DNA of 63,849 nucleotides, counting the filler, from an uncultured Methanosarcinales archaeon (GTDB taxonomy: Archaea; Nanobdellota; Nanobdellia; Woesearchaeales; CAZXZL01), in NCBI GenBank assembly GCA_964645415.1. It is 11 parts of 11 records of this genome, joined end to end, with 100 filler letters (N's around TTAATTAATTAA, not from the genome) between each part and the next. Parts side by side here need not be neighbours in the genome. Positions count along the whole stretch, not along the records: positions 45,112 to 50,045 come from CAZXZL010000053.1; 10 more parts are not named here. One strand, 5' to 3'. The position numbers were made by a program, and so were the translations under genes. Position 1 is the stretch's first letter; each line of letters opens with the position of its first letter. Of this stretch, positions 136 to 60,004 are shown in pieces. The notes under the pieces were generated by a model. The model searched no databases, was not told the origin of the DNA, and was given only the letters and a program-made list of their open reading frames with translations.

Positions 136-258
136 GCCGAGGTAGCTTAGTCGGCTATAGCACCACGCTCATAAGTTTATGAGCTATGATCGTATGCGAG
201 ATGATGCATACTCGACTGAGATACGTGGAGGTCGGGGGTTCAAGTCCCCCTCTCGGCA
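136..258 (+). tRNA. tRNA-Met (CAT) with a 49-nt intron (174..222) at canonical position 37/38
   Basis: Acceptor stem GCCGAGG/TCTCGGC+A, T arm GGGGG-TTCAAGT-CCCCC, anticodon stem CCACG/CGTGG, CAT at 170-172; bulge-helix-bulge CTCA(168-171)/TGAG(217-220). Confidence 0.92.
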
Positions 259-3579: not shown

Positions 3580-4397
3580 TTTTTATATTCTTTTAATTTT
3601 TTTATTCTTTCTTCTGTGTTTGGATGTGTACTAAATAATGATAGCATTTTTTCTTTTTGAAATGGATTTATTATAAACATATTTGATGTTACATGTTGTG
3701 ATTTTGTTGCACTAATTTTTTGACTTTCATTAATTTTATTTAATGCACTAATTAGTCCTTCTGGATTATTTGTAATTTCATAACTTCCTTTGTCAGCAAG
3801 ATATTCTCTTGATCTTGAGATTGCCATTCTAATTATTGTTGCTGTTAATGGAATAAATATTGCTGCAATAATATATCCTAATCCTTTACTTGCTCTTTTT
3901 CCACTACTAAAAATAGCTCCCCATCTAAGGAAGAATGCCATGTATGTAATTGTCATTGCAATTACTGAGGCAACTGTTGAAATTAAAGTGTCTCTGTTTT
4001 TAATGTGAGATATTTCGTGAGCAATTACTCCTTTTAATTCTTCATTATTTAATTTATCTACTAATTTATCTGTTACACAAATTACTGAATTTTTAGGATT
4101 TCTTCCTGTTGCAAATGCGTTAGGAAAATTCATTTCAGAAATGTATGTTTTTGGAGCAGGTATGTTTGCTTTTAATGCAGCTTCTTTTACCATGTCTTTA
4201 ATTTTACCTGTTCTAATCTCTTCTGCTTTATACATTTTAAGAATTATTTTATCTGAATGCCAATAACTCACAATATTAATTGCTAAAGCTATTATTAGAC
4301 CAACTAATAATCCTCTTTCTCCAAATAATGAGCCTATAAATAAAAGTAAGGCTGACATTAATCCAAGTAGGATGAATGTTTTTATTCTATTAAACAT
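3576..4397 (-). CDS. htpX: zinc metalloprotease HtpX
   Basis: PNAFATGR, HEISH, SRSREYLAD, THP motifs; TM helices. Confidence 0.93.
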   Translation of the reverse strand: MFNRIKTFILLGLMSALLLFIGSLFGERGLLVGLIIALAINIVSYWHSDKIILKMYKAEEIRTGKIKDMVKEAALKANIPAPKTYISEMNFPNAFATGRNPKNSVICVTDKLVDKLNNEELKGVIAHEISHIKNRDTLISTVASVIAMTITYMAFFLRWGAIFSSGKRASKGLGYIIAAIFIPLTATIIRMAISRSREYLADKGSYEITNNPEGLISALNKINESQKISATKSQHVTSNMFIINPFQKEKMLSLFSTHPNTEERIKKLKEYKN

Positions 4398-7110: not shown

Positions 7111-7210
7111 NNNNNNNNNNNNNNNNNNNNNNNNNNNNNNNNNNNNNNNNNNNNTTAATTAATTAANNNNNNNNNNNNNNNNNNNNNNNNNNNNNNNNNN
7201 NNNNNNNNNN
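7111..7210. other. artificial contig linker (N44-TTAATTAATTAA-N44); also at 14114, 21002, 27369, 33430, 39487, 45012, 50046, 55062 and 59766
   Basis: Identical 100-nt spacers with stops in all six frames; contig lengths decrease monotonically. Confidence 0.97.
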
Positions 7211-14113: not shown

Positions 14114-14213
14114 NNNNNNNNNNNNNNNNNNNNNNNNNNNNNNNNNNNNNNNNNNNNTTAATTAATTAANNNNNNNNNNNNNNNNNNNNNNNNNNNNNNN
14201 NNNNNNNNNNNNN

Positions 14214-21001: not shown

Positions 21002-21305
21002 NNNNNNNNNNNNNNNNNNNNNNNNNNNNNNNNNNNNNNNNNNNNTTAATTAATTAANNNNNNNNNNNNNNNNNNNNNNNNNNNNNNNNNNNNNNNNNNN
21101 NTTGATAAAAATTGAAAAAAATCAACAGATTTTTTGTTTTTATAAGTTTTTAATTATGTATAAAATACCTCCTAAATTTAAATTAATTTAATGAACAAAA
21201 AAAAGTAAATGTGTAATTTTTTAATTAATATAAACCTTTTTATAGTAAAAATAGATATTTTATAAATATACATAAACATAAAAATTTAAGATATCGGTAT
21301 TAAAG

Positions 21306-27368: not shown

Positions 27369-27481
27369 NNNNNNNNNNNNNNNNNNNNNNNNNNNNNNNN
27401 NNNNNNNNNNNNTTAATTAATTAANNNNNNNNNNNNNNNNNNNNNNNNNNNNNNNNNNNNNNNNNNNNTTTGGTGTATAAA

Positions 27482-33429: not shown

Positions 33430-33614
33430 NNNNNNNNNNNNNNNNNNNNNNNNNNNNNNNNNNNNNNNNNNNNTTAATTAATTAANNNNNNNNNNNNNNN
33501 NNNNNNNNNNNNNNNNNNNNNNNNNNNNNTTAAAAGATTGTGTGATAAAATTGCTAAAAATTGAAATACAGATATGAAAATATTTTTAATAAACTTTTAT
33601 TTCAAAAGAAATGT

Positions 33615-39486: not shown

Positions 39487-39586
39487 NNNNNNNNNNNNNN
39501 NNNNNNNNNNNNNNNNNNNNNNNNNNNNNNTTAATTAATTAANNNNNNNNNNNNNNNNNNNNNNNNNNNNNNNNNNNNNNNNNNNN

Positions 39587-44955: not shown

Positions 44956-45111
44956 TTTATAATATTTTTATCCTTTTCTTATTTATTATTTTTTATCTCA
45001 ATCTTTATCACNNNNNNNNNNNNNNNNNNNNNNNNNNNNNNNNNNNNNNNNNNNNTTAATTAATTAANNNNNNNNNNNNNNNNNNNNNNNNNNNNNNNNN
45101 NNNNNNNNNNN

Positions 45112-45245
45112 ATGGCACTGTAGTTCCTATTAGATTTTATTTCTTTTTACTTCATTCTTTTAAGTTCCTTTTTCTTAGATGATTTTGATGGACTAACTTC
45201 GAAGAAGATTAAACGTAGATTTTCTCTTTAGCATTACTTTTAATC
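45112..45245 (-). repeat. modular repeat copy (hairpin cut by contig end)
   Basis: ATGGCACTGTAGTTCC, TTCATTCTTTTAAGTTCC, TTAGATGATTTTG, TCGAAGAAGATTAAACG. Confidence 0.82.
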
Positions 45246-45265
45246 TAGAATTAATAAAGGTGTAA

Positions 45266-45280
45266 GAAAATTATATAAAT
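45266..45280 (+). promoter_or_regulatory. BRE/TATA-like promoter for the putative ncRNA
   Basis: GAAAA-TTATATAA about 25 nt upstream of 45303. Confidence 0.5.
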
Positions 45281-45302
45281 TATTATGAGTTCAAAATAGA
45301 TA

Positions 45303-45447
45303 GATGCCTTAAGGGTTCTCTTTAGAGCTTGACATTGTCAGCGATGAAATAAGAGTCTCCACTGCATTACTCAGCCTGACATTGAGAGAGCATCATTGAG
45401 AAGGCAAAAGCCGTCTATGAAATGGTGTGTTGATGAATTCGGGCATC
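45303..45447 (+). ncRNA. candidate structured non-coding RNA (about 145 nt)
   Basis: GC-richer island, terminal stem GATGCCT/GGGCATC, nested stems, no ORF. Confidence 0.6.
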
Positions 45448-45458
45448 AATTTTAATTA

Positions 45459-45832
45459 TTAATCTGTTACAAAACAACAATTATCAGTATCTTCTGTTGA
45501 AAAACATATTCCACTTTCTCCTGAACCATCTAATCTAATATCAATTCCTCTAAATGAATAACCAATTCCTTCTCTGTCTTGAATTACATTCCTATTTACT
45601 AATTCATCAGCAAAATCGGTACAATCCATTTCTGAAGGTTGAACTGGAGATGTAGATATTGCTGTTCTAAGTAATTCTAAATCATCTGTTGTAGAATCTA
45701 CTCCTTCAGTAAATTGACCCATTTGACCAGAAAAGATTGCTACTAATACTACTAAGACTATTAAAACAATGACTGCAATTACAACTAAATTCATACTTAA
45801 TTCATACTTATTTGTGAGATTTTATTTTTCAT
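45459..45832 (-). pseudogene. type IV pilin-like protein (class III signal) frameshifted by an 11-bp tandem duplication
   Basis: Removing one ATTCATACTTA copy (45789-45810) gives MKNKISQISMNLVVIAVIVLIVLVVL; GGTG RBS precedes the ATG at 45832. Confidence 0.7.
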
Positions 45833-45894
45833 GATAACACCTTATAAGTTATAATCTCTATTTATAATTAATTGTTTTTAAATGTTTATGAAAA

Positions 45895-46608
45895 TTAGTT
45901 TGATCTATTAGAATTAATTATGAATTTTAAACTTTCAAATTCATATGTTTTATCTTCATGTAAGTATACTTTAATTTCAGAAGATTTTTTATTTTTTAGG
46001 ATTGAACTTTGAAAATTCTCTTTTGTAAAATCATAACCAAAGGCTGCTTCAGAAAAGGAAGGAAGAACTATTAATTTTTTTGAATCATGCTCTGTTTCTA
46101 AAAAACATTTGAATCTTTCATTTCTATTATTATAATAAAAAGAGACTGATGGATGTTCATGACCCATGATAATTACTTTGGCTTTTTTGTAATCACTTTT
46201 AAAGTTAGGTAATTTGGATAATTCTTTGATTGATTTATCGCCGTGTATGAAAAGAAAATCATTTTTAAAATAATAGTTGTGAATTTTTTTATCAATTACA
46301 AAATCTAACATTGTGTCATGATTACCACGAATTATTGTTATTTTTGGTTTTATTTTTTTAATTAAGTTATTTATGTCTCTTTTTTCATAATCAGAAACTC
46401 TATCATAATTGTTTTTAATGTCACCACAAATAATTAGATGATTTTTATCTTTAGTCATTTCATATAATTCTTCTATTAGTTCTTTTTGAACATCTCTTAT
46501 TAGATGACCTCTTTTATTTAATTCATCTTCAATTCCAAAATGAAGATCACTTACAACTAATGTATCATTGATTTCAATTGATTTTTTTTTGAAATTATAT
46601 TCAACCAT
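45895..46608 (-). CDS. metallophosphoesterase (archaeal MJ0037-like)
   Basis: SDLHFG, GD, GNHD, HGD, GHEHP, VLPSFS. Confidence 0.88.
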   Translation of the reverse strand: MVEYNFKKKSIEINDTLVVSDLHFGIEDELNKRGHLIRDVQKELIEELYEMTKDKNHLIICGDIKNNYDRVSDYEKRDINNLIKKIKPKITIIRGNHDTMLDFVIDKKIHNYYFKNDFLFIHGDKSIKELSKLPNFKSDYKKAKVIIMGHEHPSVSFYYNNRNERFKCFLETEHDSKKLIVLPSFSEAAFGYDFTKENFQSSILKNKKSSEIKVYLHEDKTYEFESLKFIINSNRSN

Positions 46609-46609
46609 T

Positions 46610-47569
46610 TTAAACCTTTATTTTCATAAAATCTTTAGCTGAATGTGAGTCTTTTAAAAATAATCTAGCTTCTCTTTCATGATCATTTGTTGATTTATAT
46701 CTTTGACTAAAATGAATCATGACTAATTTTTTTGCATTACTTTCACTTGCTACTTGTGCTAATTGTTTGGCTGTTAAATGACCATATTCTTTTGCTTTTT
46801 CAACTTCTTTGTGAAGATATGTTGCTTCTCCAATTAATAAGTCTACATCTTCAGCAATATCATACATGTTATCACAAAGTCTTGTATCAAAGATAAATCC
46901 TAGTTTTTTTCCTGGTATTCTCATAATACTATCAGATGATTTGAATTTATGATCGTCTACAGTTACATCTTTTCCTTTTCTCAAATCTTCTAACCAAGGA
47001 CCTCTTTTTATTCCAAGTTTGTTAATTTTTTTTATGAATGATTTTTTTATCTTTTTTACATCTTTTTCTACTAATTTAAAACCATATGTATCAACACTAT
47101 GATCTAGTTTTTTTACTAAAATATTGTATTTTCTATCTTTTATAATATCATCTTTTTCGAATTCATGGATGTGAAGATCCATTTTATCATGCTCAGATTT
47201 GTATACAACTCTTTCTCCTTCTTCGGAGCGATTTATATCTTCTCCTTCTTTAAATGTATACATTAAGTTATCTATTTTTTCTTTAGTACCAGGTGGACCA
47301 TATATTTTGATTGTTGTTTCATATTTTGTTGCAAATATTGTTTGAATTAAACCAATTAATCCAAAAGTATGATCTCCATGCCAATGACTAATGAAAATCT
47401 TTTTTATTTTAGTTGGTTTGATTCCAGCAATTCTTAATTGTCTTTGAGTTCCCTCTCCACAATCAAATAGAATGTATTCATCATTATGAAAATTTGTAAT
47501 TATTGCGGTATGATTTCTTTTTTTGGTTGGAACCATACTACTTGTTCCTAATATTGTTGTCTCTATCAT
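46610..47569 (-). CDS. rnz: ribonuclease Z
   Basis: LGTSSMVPT, FDCGEGTQRQ, SHWHGDH, DT, EAT, HFSQRY; flexible arm. Confidence 0.95.
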   Translation of the reverse strand: MIETTILGTSSMVPTKKRNHTAIITNFHNDEYILFDCGEGTQRQLRIAGIKPTKIKKIFISHWHGDHTFGLIGLIQTIFATKYETTIKIYGPPGTKEKIDNLMYTFKEGEDINRSEEGERVVYKSEHDKMDLHIHEFEKDDIIKDRKYNILVKKLDHSVDTYGFKLVEKDVKKIKKSFIKKINKLGIKRGPWLEDLRKGKDVTVDDHKFKSSDSIMRIPGKKLGFIFDTRLCDNMYDIAEDVDLLIGEATYLHKEVEKAKEYGHLTAKQLAQVASESNAKKLVMIHFSQRYKSTNDHEREARLFLKDSHSAKDFMKIKV

Positions 47570-47870
47570 TTTTTCTATCTCCTCTAAAAACAATATGAGA
47601 GTATTTTACTCCATCAACTTCTATAAAATCATCTAAAAAATCTTTTTCTTTTAAGAATTCAACTACTTTGTTACCTACAATATTTACTATTTCTACTTCA
47701 GCATTTTTTAAGAGTTTAACAAGCTCTTTTTTTGTGATTTCATCTCCATTAAAGAATTTATTAATTTTTAAACGAAGTTTTCCTTCAGTAAATTCTTTTC
47801 CATAAAGATTTTTATCAGCAACTGCAAGAATTCTTTTTTCCCCATCATGAATTTTTGCAATAAATTCCAT
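47538..47870 (-). CDS. DUF424 family protein
   Basis: ILAVAD..L.GK, NIVGNKVV, VDGV; lies next to aIF-2beta. Confidence 0.8.
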   Translation of the reverse strand: MEFIAKIHDGEKRILAVADKNLYGKEFTEGKLRLKINKFFNGDEITKKELVKLLKNAEVEIVNIVGNKVVEFLKEKDFLDDFIEVDGVKYSHIVFRGDRKNDRDNNIRNK

Positions 47871-47893
47871 TTTAATCAACAACTCTAAAATAA

Positions 47894-48304
47894 TTATAGA
47901 TTGTATTTAAGTGGTTTTTTGTTTCCACAAACCATACACTTTTTAAAATAAATTCCGCTTTCTTTTGAAATTTTTGTATCTGGTTTTTGACATTCAGAAC
48001 AGATTACAAATTCATTTGTATATTTAGCAATAGCTTTGTTAATATCACTTGAGGATAATTTTGAACCAAAAATAACTCCTTTATCATAAAGTTCTCCAGG
48101 AGTTGCTAAGTTTTTTTGTAAATATTTTAGTAAATGTTTTGAATCACGTGATAATTTTTTTGCAATTTGATGAAAGTTACTAATAATTGTTTTATTTCCT
48201 TCAACATGACCTCTAACTTTTGGAATCTCAAATCTACTTTGCATATCTTCAATATCAATTGTTTCTGATCTTGCCTTATCTAATAAGTCTTCATAATTAT
48301 TCAT
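47894..48304 (-). CDS. eif2b: translation initiation factor aIF-2 subunit beta
   Basis: RFEIP, GNKTIISNF, CSECQKPDT, CMVCG. Confidence 0.93.
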   Translation of the reverse strand: MNNYEDLLDKARSETIDIEDMQSRFEIPKVRGHVEGNKTIISNFHQIAKKLSRDSKHLLKYLQKNLATPGELYDKGVIFGSKLSSSDINKAIAKYTNEFVICSECQKPDTKISKESGIYFKKCMVCGNKKPLKYNL

Positions 48305-48386
48305 ATATATCACCTTAGAAGTATTATAAAATGAAATAATGGTAACATTTATAAAGAATTCGCTTTTCTCTCAAGTTAGGTGAATT

Positions 48387-48551
48387 ATGATGGAAACTTG
48401 TATTTCATGTGACAAACCACTTATTAACGATGAGGGTTCTGTTCAATTTAAATGTCCTGAATGTAATGAATATATGATTAAAAGATGTTCTAGTTGTAGA
48501 AAGATTGCTGCAGTTTATGAATGTCCTAATTGTAACTTTGAAGGACCTTAG
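48387..48551 (+). CDS. HVO_2753/DUF1610-type zinc-finger protein (54 aa; missing from the ORF track)
   Basis: MMETCISC...FKCPEC...RCSSCRK...YECPNCNFEGP; AGGTGA RBS; lies directly before EF-1beta. Confidence 0.88.
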   Translation: MMETCISCDKPLINDEGSVQFKCPECNEYMIKRCSSCRKIAAVYECPNCNFEGP

Positions 48552-48560
48552 GTGAATAAA

Positions 48561-48836
48561 ATGGGAGAAATGATTATAACATATAAGGTAATGCCAACTA
48601 GTCCAGAAGTTGATTTGGATGAAATTGTAGAAAGTGTAGATGATATTTTAAAGAATTATGATTCTGAAGTAACTAAGACTAAAAAAGAACCTATGGCATT
48701 TGGATTAAATGCTTTGATGATTTATTTTATTGTAGATGAAAGTGTTGAAAACACTGAAGATATTGAAGAGAAAGTAAGTGAGATGGAAAAGGTTCAATCT
48801 GTTGAAGTTGCTGACATGAGAAGAACTGTCGGTTAA
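48561..48836 (+). CDS. ef1b: elongation factor 1-beta
   Basis: KVMPTSPEVDL, EPMAFGLNAL, VQSVEV. Confidence 0.93.
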   Translation: MGEMIITYKVMPTSPEVDLDEIVESVDDILKNYDSEVTKTKKEPMAFGLNALMIYFIVDESVENTEDIEEKVSEMEKVQSVEVADMRRTVG

Positions 48837-48843
48837 CTTTTTT

Positions 48844-49929
48844 TTATTTCTTTTTTAATATTTCTAATATTTCTTTTAAATTAGATTCTGTTTTTATTCC
48901 ATATTCTGAAAACATTGTTCTTGATGTATTTTTACTAAGATTATTCATTATTTTATCAAAAGATGGAACACTTTTTATTTTATATTCTTGACAAATTTTA
49001 TGGATATGATAAAATCCTAATGAGTCATGTTCTGATTGAATTAAGTTAAGGAATTTTTCTGTATCTTTTGATATGTTTTCATCAATTTCTTCTATCATTT
49101 TTTCAATTACATCTTTATGATTTAGTTTTCCTGTATATATAGGTCCAAATTTATTTCCATCTATGATTTCAAAGTTATTATAATCAAAAGTTTTATGTTG
49201 TTTTAAGACTTTATCAGTGATTTTTTTAGAAGGTATTGAAAAGAAAATTACTCTAAAGTAATGATCTTTATAATAACTAACTAGTGGAATTAATGCTCTA
49301 AAATATTGAGCTGCTACTAATTGAACCTTTCTAATTAAAATTCTCAATCCAACTTCATGCATTAAATGATTATATATTGGTCTTGCCCAGTATTTTCTTT
49401 TACACATATTAATATAAGCTCCACACAAAGGAGCAGTATCAGTAGCAGTTACAGCCAAGTATCCATATTTAATTCTTTGAAGGATTGAATCTAAGAAAGG
49501 ATTTGGAGAGCCATAAGGATCAATATCAACATAGTCATATTTATTTTCTTTTTTCAAAAGATACAACCTTGCATCTTCATTTGAGATTTCATAGTTTTCA
49601 TTAATCTTATTAAGATTTAGATTTTCCTTAATTAGGGAGCAAGCATCCTCAGAGATATCATTAAAGTGAGAGTAAACATCACATTCATTAATCATTCTAA
49701 TACCTCTCACCCCAGAAGCTGACATAGGTAAATGAACTCTTCTAATAGTTTTCATATGTTTATCATATATTTTTTTATCATCAAGTTTATTAATAGCATT
49801 AGTAAAAAGCACAGAGATATCTCGATTAGAAACCATCTTAGGATTATAGAACACATCTAATTCCTTACTCACCTTTCCCAGATATTCATAGATATTAGCA
49901 CTTCCTTCCTTAATAAGTTCCTTTTCCAT
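48844..49929 (-). CDS. trm1: tRNA (guanine26-N2)-dimethyltransferase
   Basis: VFYNPKM..NRD, SASGVRGIR, DIDPYGSP, VTATD, EVGLRIL. Confidence 0.93.
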   Translation of the reverse strand: MEKELIKEGSANIYEYLGKVSKELDVFYNPKMVSNRDISVLFTNAINKLDDKKIYDKHMKTIRRVHLPMSASGVRGIRMINECDVYSHFNDISEDACSLIKENLNLNKINENYEISNEDARLYLLKKENKYDYVDIDPYGSPNPFLDSILQRIKYGYLAVTATDTAPLCGAYINMCKRKYWARPIYNHLMHEVGLRILIRKVQLVAAQYFRALIPLVSYYKDHYFRVIFFSIPSKKITDKVLKQHKTFDYNNFEIIDGNKFGPIYTGKLNHKDVIEKMIEEIDENISKDTEKFLNLIQSEHDSLGFYHIHKICQEYKIKSVPSFDKIMNNLSKNTSRTMFSEYGIKTESNLKEILEILKKK

Positions 49930-50214
49930 ATTAAAAGAAATAATTAATTACTTTATATTTCTTATGTGTCTTATCTCATAATAATAATAATAATAATAAT
50001 AATAATCAACATTCTATTCATTTTTATTTTTGTTTTTTATAAACTNNNNNNNNNNNNNNNNNNNNNNNNNNNNNNNNNNNNNNNNNNNNTTAATTAATTA
50101 ANNNNNNNNNNNNNNNNNNNNNNNNNNNNNNNNNNNNNNNNNNNNTAAATATTATGTTATTTGTTATCTTATAGTAGTATTAACTAAAACTTCTTAAAAA
50201 AAATTAGTAAAAGT

Positions 50215-55061: not shown

Positions 55062-55163
55062 NNNNNNNNNNNNNNNNNNNNNNNNNNNNNNNNNNNNNNN
55101 NNNNNTTAATTAATTAANNNNNNNNNNNNNNNNNNNNNNNNNNNNNNNNNNNNNNNNNNNNCA

Positions 55164-59765: not shown

Positions 59766-60004
59766 NNNNNNNNNNNNNNNNNNNNNNNNNNNNNNNNNNN
59801 NNNNNNNNNTTAATTAATTAANNNNNNNNNNNNNNNNNNNNNNNNNNNNNNNNNNNNNNNNNNNNTTCATGTAAAAATAAAAGAATTTGTTTTATATATT
59901 TCTTTCTATAAAAGAAATAATTATGAAATATGTCTTTATCATAAAGAGATATTTACTTTATAAAATTTTTAATTAATATTATGTTCTATTTCTTTAATTG
60001 TAAA

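What the first reader, a model, noticed from the sequence alone, without database searches (positions are those of the whole stretch)
45303..45447. Unannotated structured ncRNA candidate with its own promoter
Seen: a clearly GC-richer island with no ORF, 25 nt after a BRE/TATA-like GAAAATTATATAA. It is closed by GATGCCT(45303)/GGGCATC(45447). Nested stems are GTTCTCTT/GAGAGAGC, TGTCAG/CTGACA and GAGT/ACTC, with a second arm CATCA/TGATG enclosing GGC-AAAA-GCC, giving a three-way junction. Several G-U pairs favour the + strand. It contains box C/D-like words (GCGATGA, CTGA, TTGATGA). I cannot match it to tRNA, RNase P (no GAGGAAAGTCC), SRP helix 8 or common riboswitches. The topology loosely recalls 5S rRNA but the CCGAAC motif is absent. 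Inference: a novel or very divergent small RNA.
Basis: partly seen in the sequence, partly recalled or inferred. Interest (0 to 1): 0.7.

Follow-up and report, generated by a model that had tools for sequence, protein, structure and literature searches.

The report
Two-hairpin H/ACA pseudouridine guide RNA
This GC-rich gap holds a real small RNA gene of a tiny DPANN archaeon: a two-hairpin guide RNA of a well-known class that most likely tells the enzyme Cbf5 which uridines of the large ribosomal RNA to turn into pseudouridine.

Summary
The island is real. It is 146 nt (45303-45448, + strand), 44% GC in a 25% GC genome, has no ORF, and has a TATA-like box about 25 nt upstream. A second organism in the same metagenomes carries a copy that aligns to exactly these 146 bases.

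It is not 5S, SRP, RNase P or a tRNA; all of these lie elsewhere in the genome. Rfam 15 has no match.

A covariance model found one full-length copy in 135 of 151 genomes of the order, and in 20 of 28 genomes from other orders of the class. Thirty copies support two independent hairpins: 92.6% paired, 27 of 35 pairs with compensatory changes, 0 of 500 shuffles as good. Each hairpin has a lower stem, a conserved internal loop, an upper stem, a K-turn and a variable tip, followed by an ACA-type box.

In the family, the 5' loop pairs with the 23S A-loop and the 3' loop with helix 69.

The genome encodes Cbf5, Nop10 and L7Ae.

The published single H/ACA sRNA of Nanoarchaeum equitans is a homolog.

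Verdict: an unannotated box H/ACA guide sRNA, a new member of a known kind. This copy is divergent: both boxes read UCA and the 5' pocket is degraded.

The parts
45266..45278 (+). BRE/TATA-like box (GAAAATTATATAA) about 25 nt upstream of the RNA 5' end
   Evidence: Sequence. TATA-like hexamers start within -40 to -24 of most of the 30 homologs, and within -34 to -24 in 16 of 30. AT-rich flanks make this weak evidence.
45303..45448 (+). The whole sRNA gene (146 nt): two hairpins, a hinge and a 3' box
   Evidence: The X2 contig aligns to exactly this span. CM hits R1 188.9 bits and R2 129.1 bits over model positions 1-144.
45303..45307 (+). Hairpin A lower stem, 5' strand (GAUGC); pairs with 45364-45368 (GCAUU)
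   Evidence: Helix 1: 7 of 7 pairs show compensatory changes and 97.6% of cells are paired. This copy has 5 bp where most homologs have 7.
45308..45317 (+). Hairpin A pocket, 5' strand (CUUAAGGGUU)
   Evidence: Aligns with the conserved AAAUGGGUC of the family. In 16 of 17 other genomes that motif pairs with their A-loop 3' flank by 6 or more contiguous Watson-Crick pairs. Here only 4 contiguous pairs form.
45318..45324 (+). Hairpin A upper stem, 5' strand; pairs with 45348-45355 (one bulged U)
   Evidence: Helix 2: 6 of 7 pairs show compensatory changes.
45325..45347 (+). K-turn A plus variable tip. Non-bulged GA at 45325-45326, C-stem GCU/AGC at 45327-45329 and 45340-45342, 3-nt bulge GAU at 45343-45345, bulged-strand GA at 45346-45347
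   Evidence: Column counts in 30 homologs: G 24/30 and A 29/30 on the non-bulged strand; G 30/30 and A 29/30 on the bulged strand; L1 is variable. The X2 variant changes cluster in the tip and at L1.
45356..45363 (+). Hairpin A pocket, 3' strand (UCUCCACU)
   Evidence: Aligns with the family's ACACUC(UU), which pairs with GGGUGU of the A-loop. In this copy the pairing is interrupted (x|x||x|).
45369..45373 (+). Hinge ACUCA with a UCA box. 15 nt lie between the pocket top and the box.
   Evidence: Last three hinge letters in 30 homologs: ACA 17, UCA 7, CCA 5, GCA 1.
45374..45382 (+). Hairpin B lower stem, 5' strand (GCCUGA + CAU); pairs with 45439-45444 and 45433-45435 across a 3-nt bulge (45436-45438)
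   Evidence: Helices 4 and 5: 5 of 8 pairs show compensatory changes. A 3-nt bulge is present in the homologs.
45383..45390 (+). Hairpin B pocket, 5' strand (UGAGAGAG)
   Evidence: GAGAG is invariant in 30 of 30 homologs. It pairs with ACUCUC on the 3' side of the helix 69 loop: 6 Watson-Crick pairs in 14 of 14 other genomes and 5 here.
45391..45397 (+). Hairpin B upper stem, 5' strand; pairs with 45421-45427
   Evidence: Helix 6: 5 of 6 pairs show compensatory changes. The 3b/3n position is often unpaired, as in K-turns.
45398..45420 (+). K-turn B plus tip. GA at 45398-45399, C-stem 45400-45405 with 45410-45415 around loop AAAA, bulge UAU at 45416-45418, GA at 45419-45420
   Evidence: Column counts: non-bulged G 25/30 and A 30/30; bulge N, A 29/30, U 28/30; bulged-strand G 30/30 and A 30/30. 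Six X2 changes fall in the C-stem and tip, and a hairpin is still predicted there.
45428..45432 (+). Hairpin B pocket, 3' strand (UGUUG)
   Evidence: Aligns with the family's AGUUA. GUUA pairs with UAAC of the helix 69 loop: 4 Watson-Crick pairs in 14 of 14 other genomes, and 3 Watson-Crick plus 1 G-U here.
45445..45448 (+). 3' tail AUCA (UCA box)
   Evidence: Last three letters in 30 homologs: ACA 21, UCA 6, CCA 2, GCA 1.
45451..45454 (+). T-run, possible terminator
   Evidence: Sequence. Only 9 of 30 homologs have TTTT within 15 nt downstream.

Best explanation
Window 45303-45448 (+) encodes a 146-nt box H/ACA-type guide sRNA. It is transcribed from its own TATA-type promoter.

Architecture (shown by covariation and motif conservation): the RNA folds into two independent hairpins. 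Each has a lower stem, an internal loop (the pseudouridylation pocket), an upper stem, a K-turn and a variable apical stem-loop. Each is followed about 15 nt from the pocket top by an ACA-type box, which reads UCA in this copy.

Assembly (inferred from the known biochemistry of archaeal H/ACA RNPs): L7Ae binds the K-turns. Cbf5-Nop10 binds the lower stem and box. The two strands of each pocket pair with 23S rRNA on either side of an unpaired uridine, which Cbf5 isomerises to pseudouridine.

Targets in the family (shown as complementarity only):
- The 3' hairpin pairs with the helix 69 loop in a UAAC-UNUN-ACUCUC arrangement, at the positions of E. coli 1915/1917. This is the same atypical four-unpaired-base arrangement used by stem-loop 2 of Haloferax volcanii sR-h45.
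- The 5' hairpin pairs with the A-loop (helix 92) as GGGUGU-UC-ACCCAUU, which predicts a pseudouridine at the position of E. coli U2555, or U2554.

In this genome: the helix 69 pairing is kept (4+5 bp). The A-loop pairing is largely lost, so the 5' hairpin may be inactive or retargeted.
For: 1. Real, bounded, conserved gene. The X2 contig aligns only to 45303-45448. R2 finds one full-length copy in 135 of 151 genomes of the order, 108 of 115 high-quality ones (the tally includes the unpublished G131, so 134 of 150 without it). It also finds a copy in 111 of 121 genomes of a phylum sample, including 20 of 28 from other orders of the class.
2. Two-hairpin fold. 92.6% of cells are paired, 27 of 35 pairs have compensatory changes, 0 of 500 shuffles reach this, and slid controls give 27-39%. 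RNAalifold independently gives two hairpins.
3. K-turn signature is nearly invariant in both hairpins.
4. Boxes: ACA in 17 of 30 hinges and 21 of 30 tails; the final CA is invariant.
5. The pockets are the most conserved parts, while the stems covary.
6. A-loop pairing of 13 bp with one G-U in G098; 0 of 300 guide shuffles reach it anywhere in LSU+SSU. The same pairing is seen in 16 of 17 genomes for the 3' arm (6 or more contiguous Watson-Crick pairs) and 15 of 17 for the 5' arm. One compensatory guide/target change occurs in G098: guide G>C with target C>G.
7. Helix 69 pairing of 4+6 Watson-Crick bp around UAUA is the best gap-4 hit in LSU+SSU of G098, and is present in 14 of 14 genomes whose locus holds helix 69.
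8. The genome encodes Cbf5 with DKCLD, TruB_N, TruB_C_2 and PUA domains, plus Nop10 and L7Ae.
9. A published homolog exists: the single 159-nt two-hairpin H/ACA sRNA of N. equitans. It has two ACA motifs, two identical K-turns, its own promoter and a T-stretch, and is abundant in RNA-seq (PMC3491384, passages and Additional file 2 row 31). By eye, its stem 2 shares the GCCCG.CACGAGAGU and AUGAGCU.GGG.GUUAGUG..CGGGCAACA blocks with this family.
10. sR-h45 stem-loop 2 uses an unpaired UNUN target on helix 69 (PMC7075261, passages).
Against: - Both boxes of this copy read UCA, not ACA/ANA. The family minority with a non-A first letter is 13 of 30 hinges and 9 of 30 tails.
- The 5' pocket of this copy pairs poorly with its own A-loop: 4 contiguous pairs on one arm and an interrupted other arm. 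No better canonical rRNA target stood out.
- The helix 69 match is only 10 bp. 15 of 300 shuffled guides reach that score somewhere in the rRNA with gap 4, and 55 of 300 with gaps 2-4.
- The hairpin B pocket could also close on itself through G-U and tandem G-A pairs (by eye, from the and 59 alignments). These columns never vary, so covariation cannot decide.
- Gar1 was not found. That search also missed one of four archaeal controls.
- There are no RNA data for this organism and no pseudouridine mapping for any member.
- The single-sequence folding z-score is only -1.3.
Confidence: 0.85

Rival explanations
1. It is a conserved L7Ae-binding two-hairpin RNA with a different job, for example an rRNA-folding chaperone or an RNP scaffold. 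It would bind the ribosomal RNA or proteins through its conserved internal loops without directing pseudouridylation.
For: The K-turns are the best-conserved motifs. The hairpin B loop can close on itself, and its helix 69 match is statistically modest at 15 of 300 shuffles. Boxes deviate from ACA in a third of members. This copy has lost most of the A-loop pairing yet keeps the fold. Gar1 was not found.
Against: The box sits about 15 nt from each pocket. The 13-bp A-loop match was reached by 0 of 300 shuffles and shows a guide/target compensatory change. The helix 69 match uses the same UNUN geometry as an experimentally proven guide. A full Cbf5 with a PUA domain and Nop10 are present.
Confidence: 0.08
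2. One reading: a novel small RNA closed by a terminal helix (45303-45309 with 45441-45447) that forms a three-way junction.
For: The complementary words exist in this sequence. With the closing helix enforced, the fold is only about 2 kcal/mol above the MFE (-38.1 against -40.2).
Against: On 30 homologs the structure is 53.6% paired against 52.9% for shuffles. The closing helix is 47% paired, and 7 of 32 pairs have double changes, a count 90 of 500 shuffles reach. The X2 variant breaks two of its helices without compensation.
Confidence: 0.02
3. It is a box C/D methylation guide sRNA, suggested by the GCGAUGA, CUGA and UUGAUGA words.
For: GAUGA-type words are present. There are weak sub-threshold Rfam hits to C/D families, on the minus strand only (SNORD98, 14.9 bits, E 6.5).
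Against: CUGA is not conserved in homologs. There is no C-D'-C'-D spacing. Neither strand has 10 nt or more of contiguous complementarity to the rRNA operon, whereas 60 of 200 shuffles do. The GAUGA word belongs to a K-turn with an apical stem, not to a terminal C/D motif.
Confidence: 0.01
4. It is a known RNA in disguise: a tRNA with several introns, a second 5S rRNA, or a reduced RNase P or SRP RNA.
For: The 7-bp terminal complementarity followed by an A resembles an acceptor stem. Intron-bearing tRNAs of 120-130 nt occur in this genome and its relatives.
Against: No Rfam tRNA hit even at E up to 10. There is no D-arm or T-arm by eye. The 40-41 tRNAs found cover all 20 amino acids. 5S, RNase P and SRP RNAs are found elsewhere above their thresholds. 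The acceptor-like helix does not covary.
Confidence: 0.01
5. It is a non-functional GC-rich remnant or a chance island.
For: The single-sequence folding z-score is weak (-1.3). No RNA run was available for this organism.
Against: It is near-universal, single-copy and full-length conserved, with extensive compensatory change.
Confidence: 0.01

Closest known systems
The single box H/ACA sRNA of Nanoarchaeum equitans (Randau 2012, PMC3491384; sequence in Additional file 2, row 31)
   Same: Same class of organisms. Similar size (159 nt against 146 nt). Two extended hairpins, each with a K-turn of identical form. The hinge is only a few bases ending in ACA, with no proper ANANNA H box. It has its own box-A promoter and a T-stretch. 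By eye, stem 2 shares long blocks with this family (GCCCG.CACGAGAGU, AUGAGCU.GGG.GUUAGUG, CGGGCAACA), so they are homologs.
   Different: By eye, stem 1 of the N. equitans RNA has different pocket sequences from hairpin A here. The paper's RNAsnoop predictions (16S U234; 23S U614 and 16S U796) differ from the helix 69 and A-loop targets proposed here. The copy in this window has UCA boxes. I did not run the published sequence through any tool, because it is not a stored locus.
[quoted passage not shown] 2020, PMC7075261; passages read)
   Same: One two-hairpin guide serves a whole small set of 23S pseudouridines. The 3' stem-loop targets the helix 69 loop with four unpaired target bases (UNUN), and the 5' stem-loop targets domain V. 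There are K-turns with sheared G-A pairs in both stem-loops.
   Different: sR-h45 is about 200 nt, with a 56-base linker between the stem-loops, where this RNA has 5 nt. Its 5' stem-loop makes pseudouridine 2605 (H. volcanii numbering), a different site from the A-loop predicted here. No sequence similarity was tested. Function there is shown by deletion and in vitro assay; here it is only predicted.
Pab40 / Pf7 / Afu4 (Rfam HgcG), the three-motif H/ACA sRNA of Thermococcales (Muller et al. 2008, PMC2377435; passages read)
   Same: A multi-hairpin H/ACA sRNA in which one motif (motif 3) targets the conserved helix 69 pseudouridine (P. abyssi 2016) and others target domain V.
   Different: It has three motifs, not two. 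There is no Rfam match to HgcG or any other family, even at E up to 10, for this copy or a typical member. No A-loop target is listed for P. abyssi in the passages I read.
Yeast snR10, guide for the A-loop pseudouridine of 25S rRNA (recalled, no paper read)
   Same: An H/ACA guide aimed at the A-loop of the large-subunit rRNA.
   Different: It is eukaryotic and has no K-turn. Its target is recalled as the position of E. coli U2554, whereas the canonical reading here gives U2555. This comparison rests on memory only.

Membership tests
Archaeal box H/ACA guide sRNA | Hairpin made of a lower stem, a large internal loop (pocket) and an upper stem | tested here: met
   Two such hairpins. 27 of 35 stem pairs have compensatory changes and 0 of 500 shuffles match this. 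The internal-loop columns are conserved.
Archaeal box H/ACA guide sRNA | K-turn or K-loop (tandem sheared G-A with a 3-nt bulge) in the upper stem, the L7Ae site | tested here: met
   Met by sequence signature only. GA followed by a C-stem on one strand, and a C-stem followed by N-A-U-GA on the other, are conserved in 24-30 of 30 homologs per position in both hairpins. Both are present in this copy at 45325-45347 and 45398-45420. L7Ae binding was not tested.
Archaeal box H/ACA guide sRNA | ACA (ANA) box about 14-16 nt 3' of the pocket top, after each hairpin | tested here: inconclusive
   Family: ACA in 17 of 30 hinges and 21 of 30 tails, with CA invariant. This copy has UCA at both places. 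Spacing is 15 nt in hairpin A, and 18 nt including a 3-nt bulge in hairpin B (counted by hand).
Archaeal box H/ACA guide sRNA | Both pocket strands are complementary to a stable RNA on either side of an unpaired U | tested here: inconclusive
   Family: hairpin A with the A-loop, 13 bp, 0 of 300 shuffles. Hairpin B with helix 69, 4+6 bp around UNUN, in 14 of 14 genomes but reached by 15 of 300 shuffles. This copy: hairpin B 4+5 bp; hairpin A degraded.
Archaeal box H/ACA guide sRNA | Partner proteins Cbf5, Nop10, L7Ae and Gar1 encoded in the genome | tested here: met
   Cbf5 (DKCLD, TruB_N, TruB_C_2, PUA), Nop10 and L7Ae found. Gar1 not found at E up to 0.001; that search rang in only 3 of the 4 archaeal control genomes.
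Archaeal box H/ACA guide sRNA | The RNA is expressed and the predicted uridines are pseudouridines | not testable with these tools
   Only DNA runs hold the locus. Expression is shown only for the N. equitans homolog (PMC3491384).
Any Rfam 15 family (including HgcE/F/G and snoR9 archaeal H/ACA families) | Score at or above the family's gathering threshold | tested here: not met
   No hit on this strand at gathering threshold or at E up to 10. None in 10 loci that hold typical members. None related at E up to 10 for L076.
Box C/D sRNA | C, D', C' and D boxes with about 12-nt guides complementary to rRNA or tRNA | tested here: not met
   No conserved CUGA. No complementarity of 10 nt or more to the rRNA operon.
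tRNA / 5S rRNA / SRP RNA / RNase P RNA | Match to the family model; the gene otherwise missing from the genome | tested here: not met
   No match here. All four kinds are found elsewhere in G000.

The most novel reading that the evidence does not exclude
This would be the one and only H/ACA guide of a whole class of ultra-small archaea. Its 5' hairpin would direct pseudouridylation of the ribosomal A-loop, a site I did not find reported as RNA-guided in archaea. About a third of members, including this one, work with NCA boxes instead of ACA, which would imply relaxed box recognition by the DPANN Cbf5. In this fast-evolving soda-lake lineage the 5' guide would be caught in the act of decaying or retargeting, while the helix 69 guide is kept.
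Probability: 0.3. Interest if true: 0.5.

Novelty: new member of a known kind. Interest (0 to 1): 0.35.

Why it matters
The result turns an orphan GC island into an annotated gene. It also yields a covariance model (R2) that finds the same unannotated RNA in about nine of ten genomes of a large, uncultivated archaeal class that Rfam does not cover.

It makes concrete, testable predictions: pseudouridines in the helix 69 loop and the A-loop of DPANN ribosomes. It suggests that even these minimal genomes keep one RNA-guided modification system for the two tRNA-contacting loops of the large subunit.

It also revises the target prediction for the published N. equitans H/ACA sRNA, at least for its second stem.

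The biology itself is ordinary. The RNA class, its proteins and its mechanism are textbook.

Tried and rejected
- BLAST of the element against 61 and then 401 genomes of the order found only short chance matches inside coding regions.
- Pattern scans of genome contigs, metagenome contigs and viral contigs with conserved 22-23-nt blocks gave 0 matches. Phage blastn gave none.
- The search for related loci with the neighbouring 237-aa phosphoesterase found no relative in metagenome contigs.
- RNase Z neighbourhoods in relatives hold intron-bearing tRNA-Arg and tRNA-Cys genes, not this RNA. Synteny did not help.
- Sequencing runs: no RNA holder listed. The four runs laid were DNA contigs from one study.
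- rRNA complementarity of the C/D type: none of 10 nt or more.
- My first H/ACA target scans, with wrong pocket limits or a fixed 2-nt gap, found nothing above the shuffles. The helix 69 match appeared only after reading that sR-h45 uses a 4-nt unpaired target.
- A degenerate pattern for a canonical 2-nt-gap target of hairpin B gave no excess over its reversed control in 14 genomes.
- A weak idea that the Haloferax pseudouridine 2605 site (recalled by me as E. coli U2586) is the hairpin A target was dropped. That region in this genome shows no match to the hairpin A pocket strands, and the unconstrained scan instead picked the A-loop about 30 nt upstream.
- Literature: a search for 'H ACA' + 'DPANN' + 'sRNA' gave 0 papers. 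The search engine does not match the written form H/ACA (0 occurrences reported even in PMC3491384), so this blank says nothing about what is in print.
- Earlier-findings look-up by sequence: nothing.
Full report
**What is at the coordinates**

The window is not one molecule. It is eleven contigs of one 961-kb, 25.2% GC genome, joined by N44-TTAATTAATTAA-N44 linkers. The finding lies 191 nt inside contig C53 (window 45112-50045).

- The stretch 45303-45448 is 44% GC. Only 1.4% of 100-nt windows in the genome reach 40% GC.
- No ORF of 30 aa or more overlaps it.
- GAAAATTATATAA lies about 25 nt upstream, and TTTT lies 3 nt downstream.
- Of 39 GC-rich islands that are less than half covered by an 80-aa or longer ORF, I matched 35 by eye to the rRNA operon, tRNAs, 5S, SRP RNA or RNase P RNA. 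Two more look like short coding genes. That leaves this island and C75:719-856 as orphans.

So the observation of an ORF-free GC island with a promoter-like box holds, and such islands are good predictors of RNA genes in this genome.

**What it is not**

- Rfam 15 gives nothing here at gathering thresholds. At E up to 10 it gives nothing on the + strand.
- The genome has a 5S rRNA (77.5 bits, C16), an RNase P RNA (126.8 bits, C3) and an SRP RNA (114.9 bits, C26). It also has 40-41 tRNAs covering all 20 amino acids.
- Neither strand has 10 nt or more of contiguous complementarity to the rRNA operon, whereas 60 of 200 shuffles have. That argues against a C/D guide.

**First comparative evidence**

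No RNA run holds the locus. Laying the DNA contigs of four soda-lake metagenome runs from one study gave two useful results.

- The left flank 45112-45232 is a high-copy repeat, with depth 300-766 against 10-26. BLAST shows more than 100 partial copies in the genome, many at contig ends. This explains the contig break.
- A 2020-nt contig of a different organism (X2, record 13) aligns only to 45303-45448, with 17 substitutions and 3 gaps.

The listed changes cluster in two short segments (45334-45343 and 45400-45413). A two-hairpin MFE architecture is kept.

The single-sequence z-score is weak at -1.3.

**Finding the family**

BLAST, pattern scans and synteny all failed.

- A covariance model from the single sequence with the two-hairpin fold (R1) found three full-length hits of 27-35 bits among 151 genomes of the order.
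- A second model built from these four sequences (R2) found one full-length copy in 135 of 151 genomes of the order. That is 108 of 115 high-quality genomes. The tally includes the unpublished G131.
- R2 also hit 111 of 121 genomes of a phylum-wide sample, including 20 of 28 from other orders of the same class.

The RNA is a near-universal, single-copy gene of this DPANN class. RNase Z neighbours show the genome is Woesearchaeota-like, at 41-44% identity to named Woesearchaeota records.

**Structure**

Thirty high-scoring copies were aligned (A5).

- RNAalifold gives two hairpins, with 24 of 36 pairs showing compensatory change.
- My refined structure has 35 pairs in 8 helices. It is 92.6% paired, 27 pairs have compensatory changes, 0 of 500 shuffles reach any of the five measures, and slid controls give 27-39%.
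Its closing helix is 47% paired.

Each hairpin has the same plan, in this order:

- a lower stem;
- a conserved internal loop;
- an upper stem of 6-7 pairs;
- GA immediately followed by a stem on the 5' strand;
- on the 3' strand, that stem followed by three bulged bases (N-A-U) and GA;
- a variable apical stem-loop.

That is the K-turn signature, and its G and A positions are kept in 24-30 of 30 sequences. The position next to the sheared pairs is often unpaired (14 and 16 of 30), as expected in K-turns.

The X2 changes fall in the apical stems, in bulge position L1, in the hinge N, and in a G-C to G-U change in an upper stem. All are positions where this model tolerates change.

After each hairpin comes NCA. 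It reads ACA in 17 of 30 hinges and 21 of 30 tails, and UCA at both places in this copy. The box begins 15 nt from the top of the pocket in hairpin A. In hairpin B it begins 18 nt from the pocket top in this copy (17 in typical members), a count that includes the conserved 3-nt bulge.

This is the architecture of an archaeal box H/ACA guide sRNA.

**Proteins**

The genome encodes a full Cbf5 (DKCLD, TruB_N, TruB_C_2, PUA), Nop10 and an L7Ae-family protein. Gar1 was not found. That search also missed one of the four archaeal controls.

**Targets**

My first scans used wrong pocket limits and found nothing above shuffles.

Hairpin A and the A-loop:

- An unconstrained bipartite scan of one typical member (G098) against its own LSU and SSU picked out the 23S A-loop. 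The target is GGGUGU-UC-ACCGAUU, paired with ACACUC and AAUCGGU of the hairpin A pocket. That is 13 pairs with one G-U.
- With the pocket fixed, 0 of 300 shuffled guides reach this score anywhere in the rRNAs.
- In 17 other genomes for which I could fetch both RNAs, the 3' arm has 6 or more contiguous Watson-Crick pairs in 16, and the 5' arm has 6 or more pairs in 15.
- G098 carries a C>G change in the rRNA that is matched by G>C in its guide.
- By the usual rule the first unpaired U is the target. By my recollection of the numbering, that is the position of E. coli U2555. If the top A-U pair is open, it is U2554.

Hairpin B and helix 69:

- Hairpin B matched nothing with a 2-nt gap.
- The paper on H. 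volcanii sR-h45 (PMC7075261, passages) states that the 3' stem-loop of that double-hairpin guide makes the two helix 69 pseudouridines. It does so on a target with four unpaired bases (UNUN).
- Helix 69 of these archaea reads GGGGGUAAC-UAUA-ACUCUCUU. The hairpin B pocket strands GUUA and GAGAGU pair with UAAC and ACUCUC around UAUA in 14 of 14 genomes whose locus held helix 69.
- This is the best gap-4 hit in the G098 rRNAs. However, 15 of 300 shuffles score as well somewhere. The support comes mainly from the hit landing on the one site expected from sR-h45.

This copy is a divergent member.

- On its own helix 69 (UAAC-UCUG-ACUCUC) hairpin B keeps 4+5 pairs.
- Its hairpin A pocket (CUUAAGGGUU / UCUCCACU) pairs poorly with its own A-loop, GGGUGU-UC-ACCUGUC. 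There are four contiguous pairs on one arm and interrupted pairing on the other.
- I found no convincing alternative target.

**Known relatives**

Randau 2012 (PMC3491384; passages, Additional file 2 row 31) described a single 159-nt H/ACA sRNA in Nanoarchaeum equitans. It has two extended hairpins, two identical K-turn bulges, two ACA motifs, a hinge without a proper H box, its own box-A promoter and a T-stretch. It has high RNA-seq coverage.

Its printed sequence shares long blocks of stem 2 with this family. I compared it by eye only and did not run it through a tool. The family is therefore the class-wide homolog of a published, expressed RNA.

The paper's RNAsnoop targets differ from mine. 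For P. abyssi, Muller 2008 (PMC2377435, passages) lists a helix 69 guide (Pab40 motif 3) and no A-loop guide.

Rfam 15 has no model that catches typical members. Earlier notes of this scan report similar unannotated H/ACA guides in other archaeal lineages. I did not test those.

**Verdict**

Its fold is two K-turn hairpins, not a closed three-way junction. It is a box H/ACA-type pseudouridylation guide sRNA, a new member of a known kind.

- Shown here: conservation, fold, K-turn and box signatures, rRNA complementarity, and the presence of Cbf5, Nop10 and L7Ae.
- Inferred: protein binding, guide activity and the exact modified uridines.
- Open for this particular copy: whether UCA boxes work, and whether the 5' hairpin still guides anything.

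Noticed in passing
window 7111-7210, 14114-14213, 21002-21101, 27369-27468, 33430-33529, 39487-39586, 45012-45111, 50046-50145, 55062-55161, 59766-59865: The window is eleven contigs (C44-C50, C53, C54, C56, C60) joined by N44-TTAATTAATTAA-N44 linkers. Features must not be read across these joints.
   Followed up: yes
window 45112-45240 (G000:C53:1-131): A dispersed repeat of about 75-130 nt with more than 100 partial copies in the genome. Many copies sit at contig ends and some are in tandem (for example C2:43719-44143, C29:10496-10886). Depth in metagenome contigs is 300-766 against 10-26 for the unique DNA beside it. It probably explains the fragmented assembly. Its nature (MITE-like or REP-like) is unknown.
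   Followed up: partly
window 136-258: A tRNA-Met(CAU) gene with an intron of about 50 nt. Rfam and ARAGORN with introns allowed both find it, but default ARAGORN misses it.
   Followed up: partly
G000:C1:16963-17066: A tRNA called Ile(UAU) by ARAGORN, with a 26-nt intron. A UAU-anticodon tRNA-Ile is unusual in archaea. Only two CAU tRNAs were found in the genome.
   Followed up: no
G000:C75:719-856: The genome's second orphan GC-rich, ORF-free island. It holds two GC-rich hairpins downstream of an ORF and is unexplained.
   Followed up: no
window 45459-45794 (-): A 111-aa ORF with a hydrophobic N-terminus, convergent with the sRNA. Its DNA has four tandem related stretches at G000:C3:35721-36675, so it belongs to a small paralogous family.
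   Followed up: partly
L075-L100, first 10-12 nt downstream of the sRNA: Many homologs are followed by AAC(C/A)(C/U)UUUAA. This may be a conserved 3' processing or termination signal. It is not present in this window's copy.
   Followed up: no
alignment A5, columns 14-21 with 101-108 (window 45315-45322 with 45384-45391): The hairpin A strand GUCCUU and the hairpin B strand GAGAGUAC are complementary in 78% of cells but never covary. This could be a coincidence of two guide sequences or an inter-hairpin contact.
   Followed up: no
L017, L021, L022, L026 (RNase Z neighbourhoods of relatives): Intron-bearing tRNA-Arg(UCU) genes and tRNA-Cys genes sit next to RNase Z in several relatives.
   Followed up: no
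G000:C1 about 3640-3680; L108, L106 (23S helix 69): Helix 69 of this genome and of the two relatives examined (G098, G022) has a 3' strand reading CUCUCU, which pairs with GGGGG through G-U pairs. The guide sequence GAGAGU is complementary to this lineage-specific strand.
   Followed up: partly
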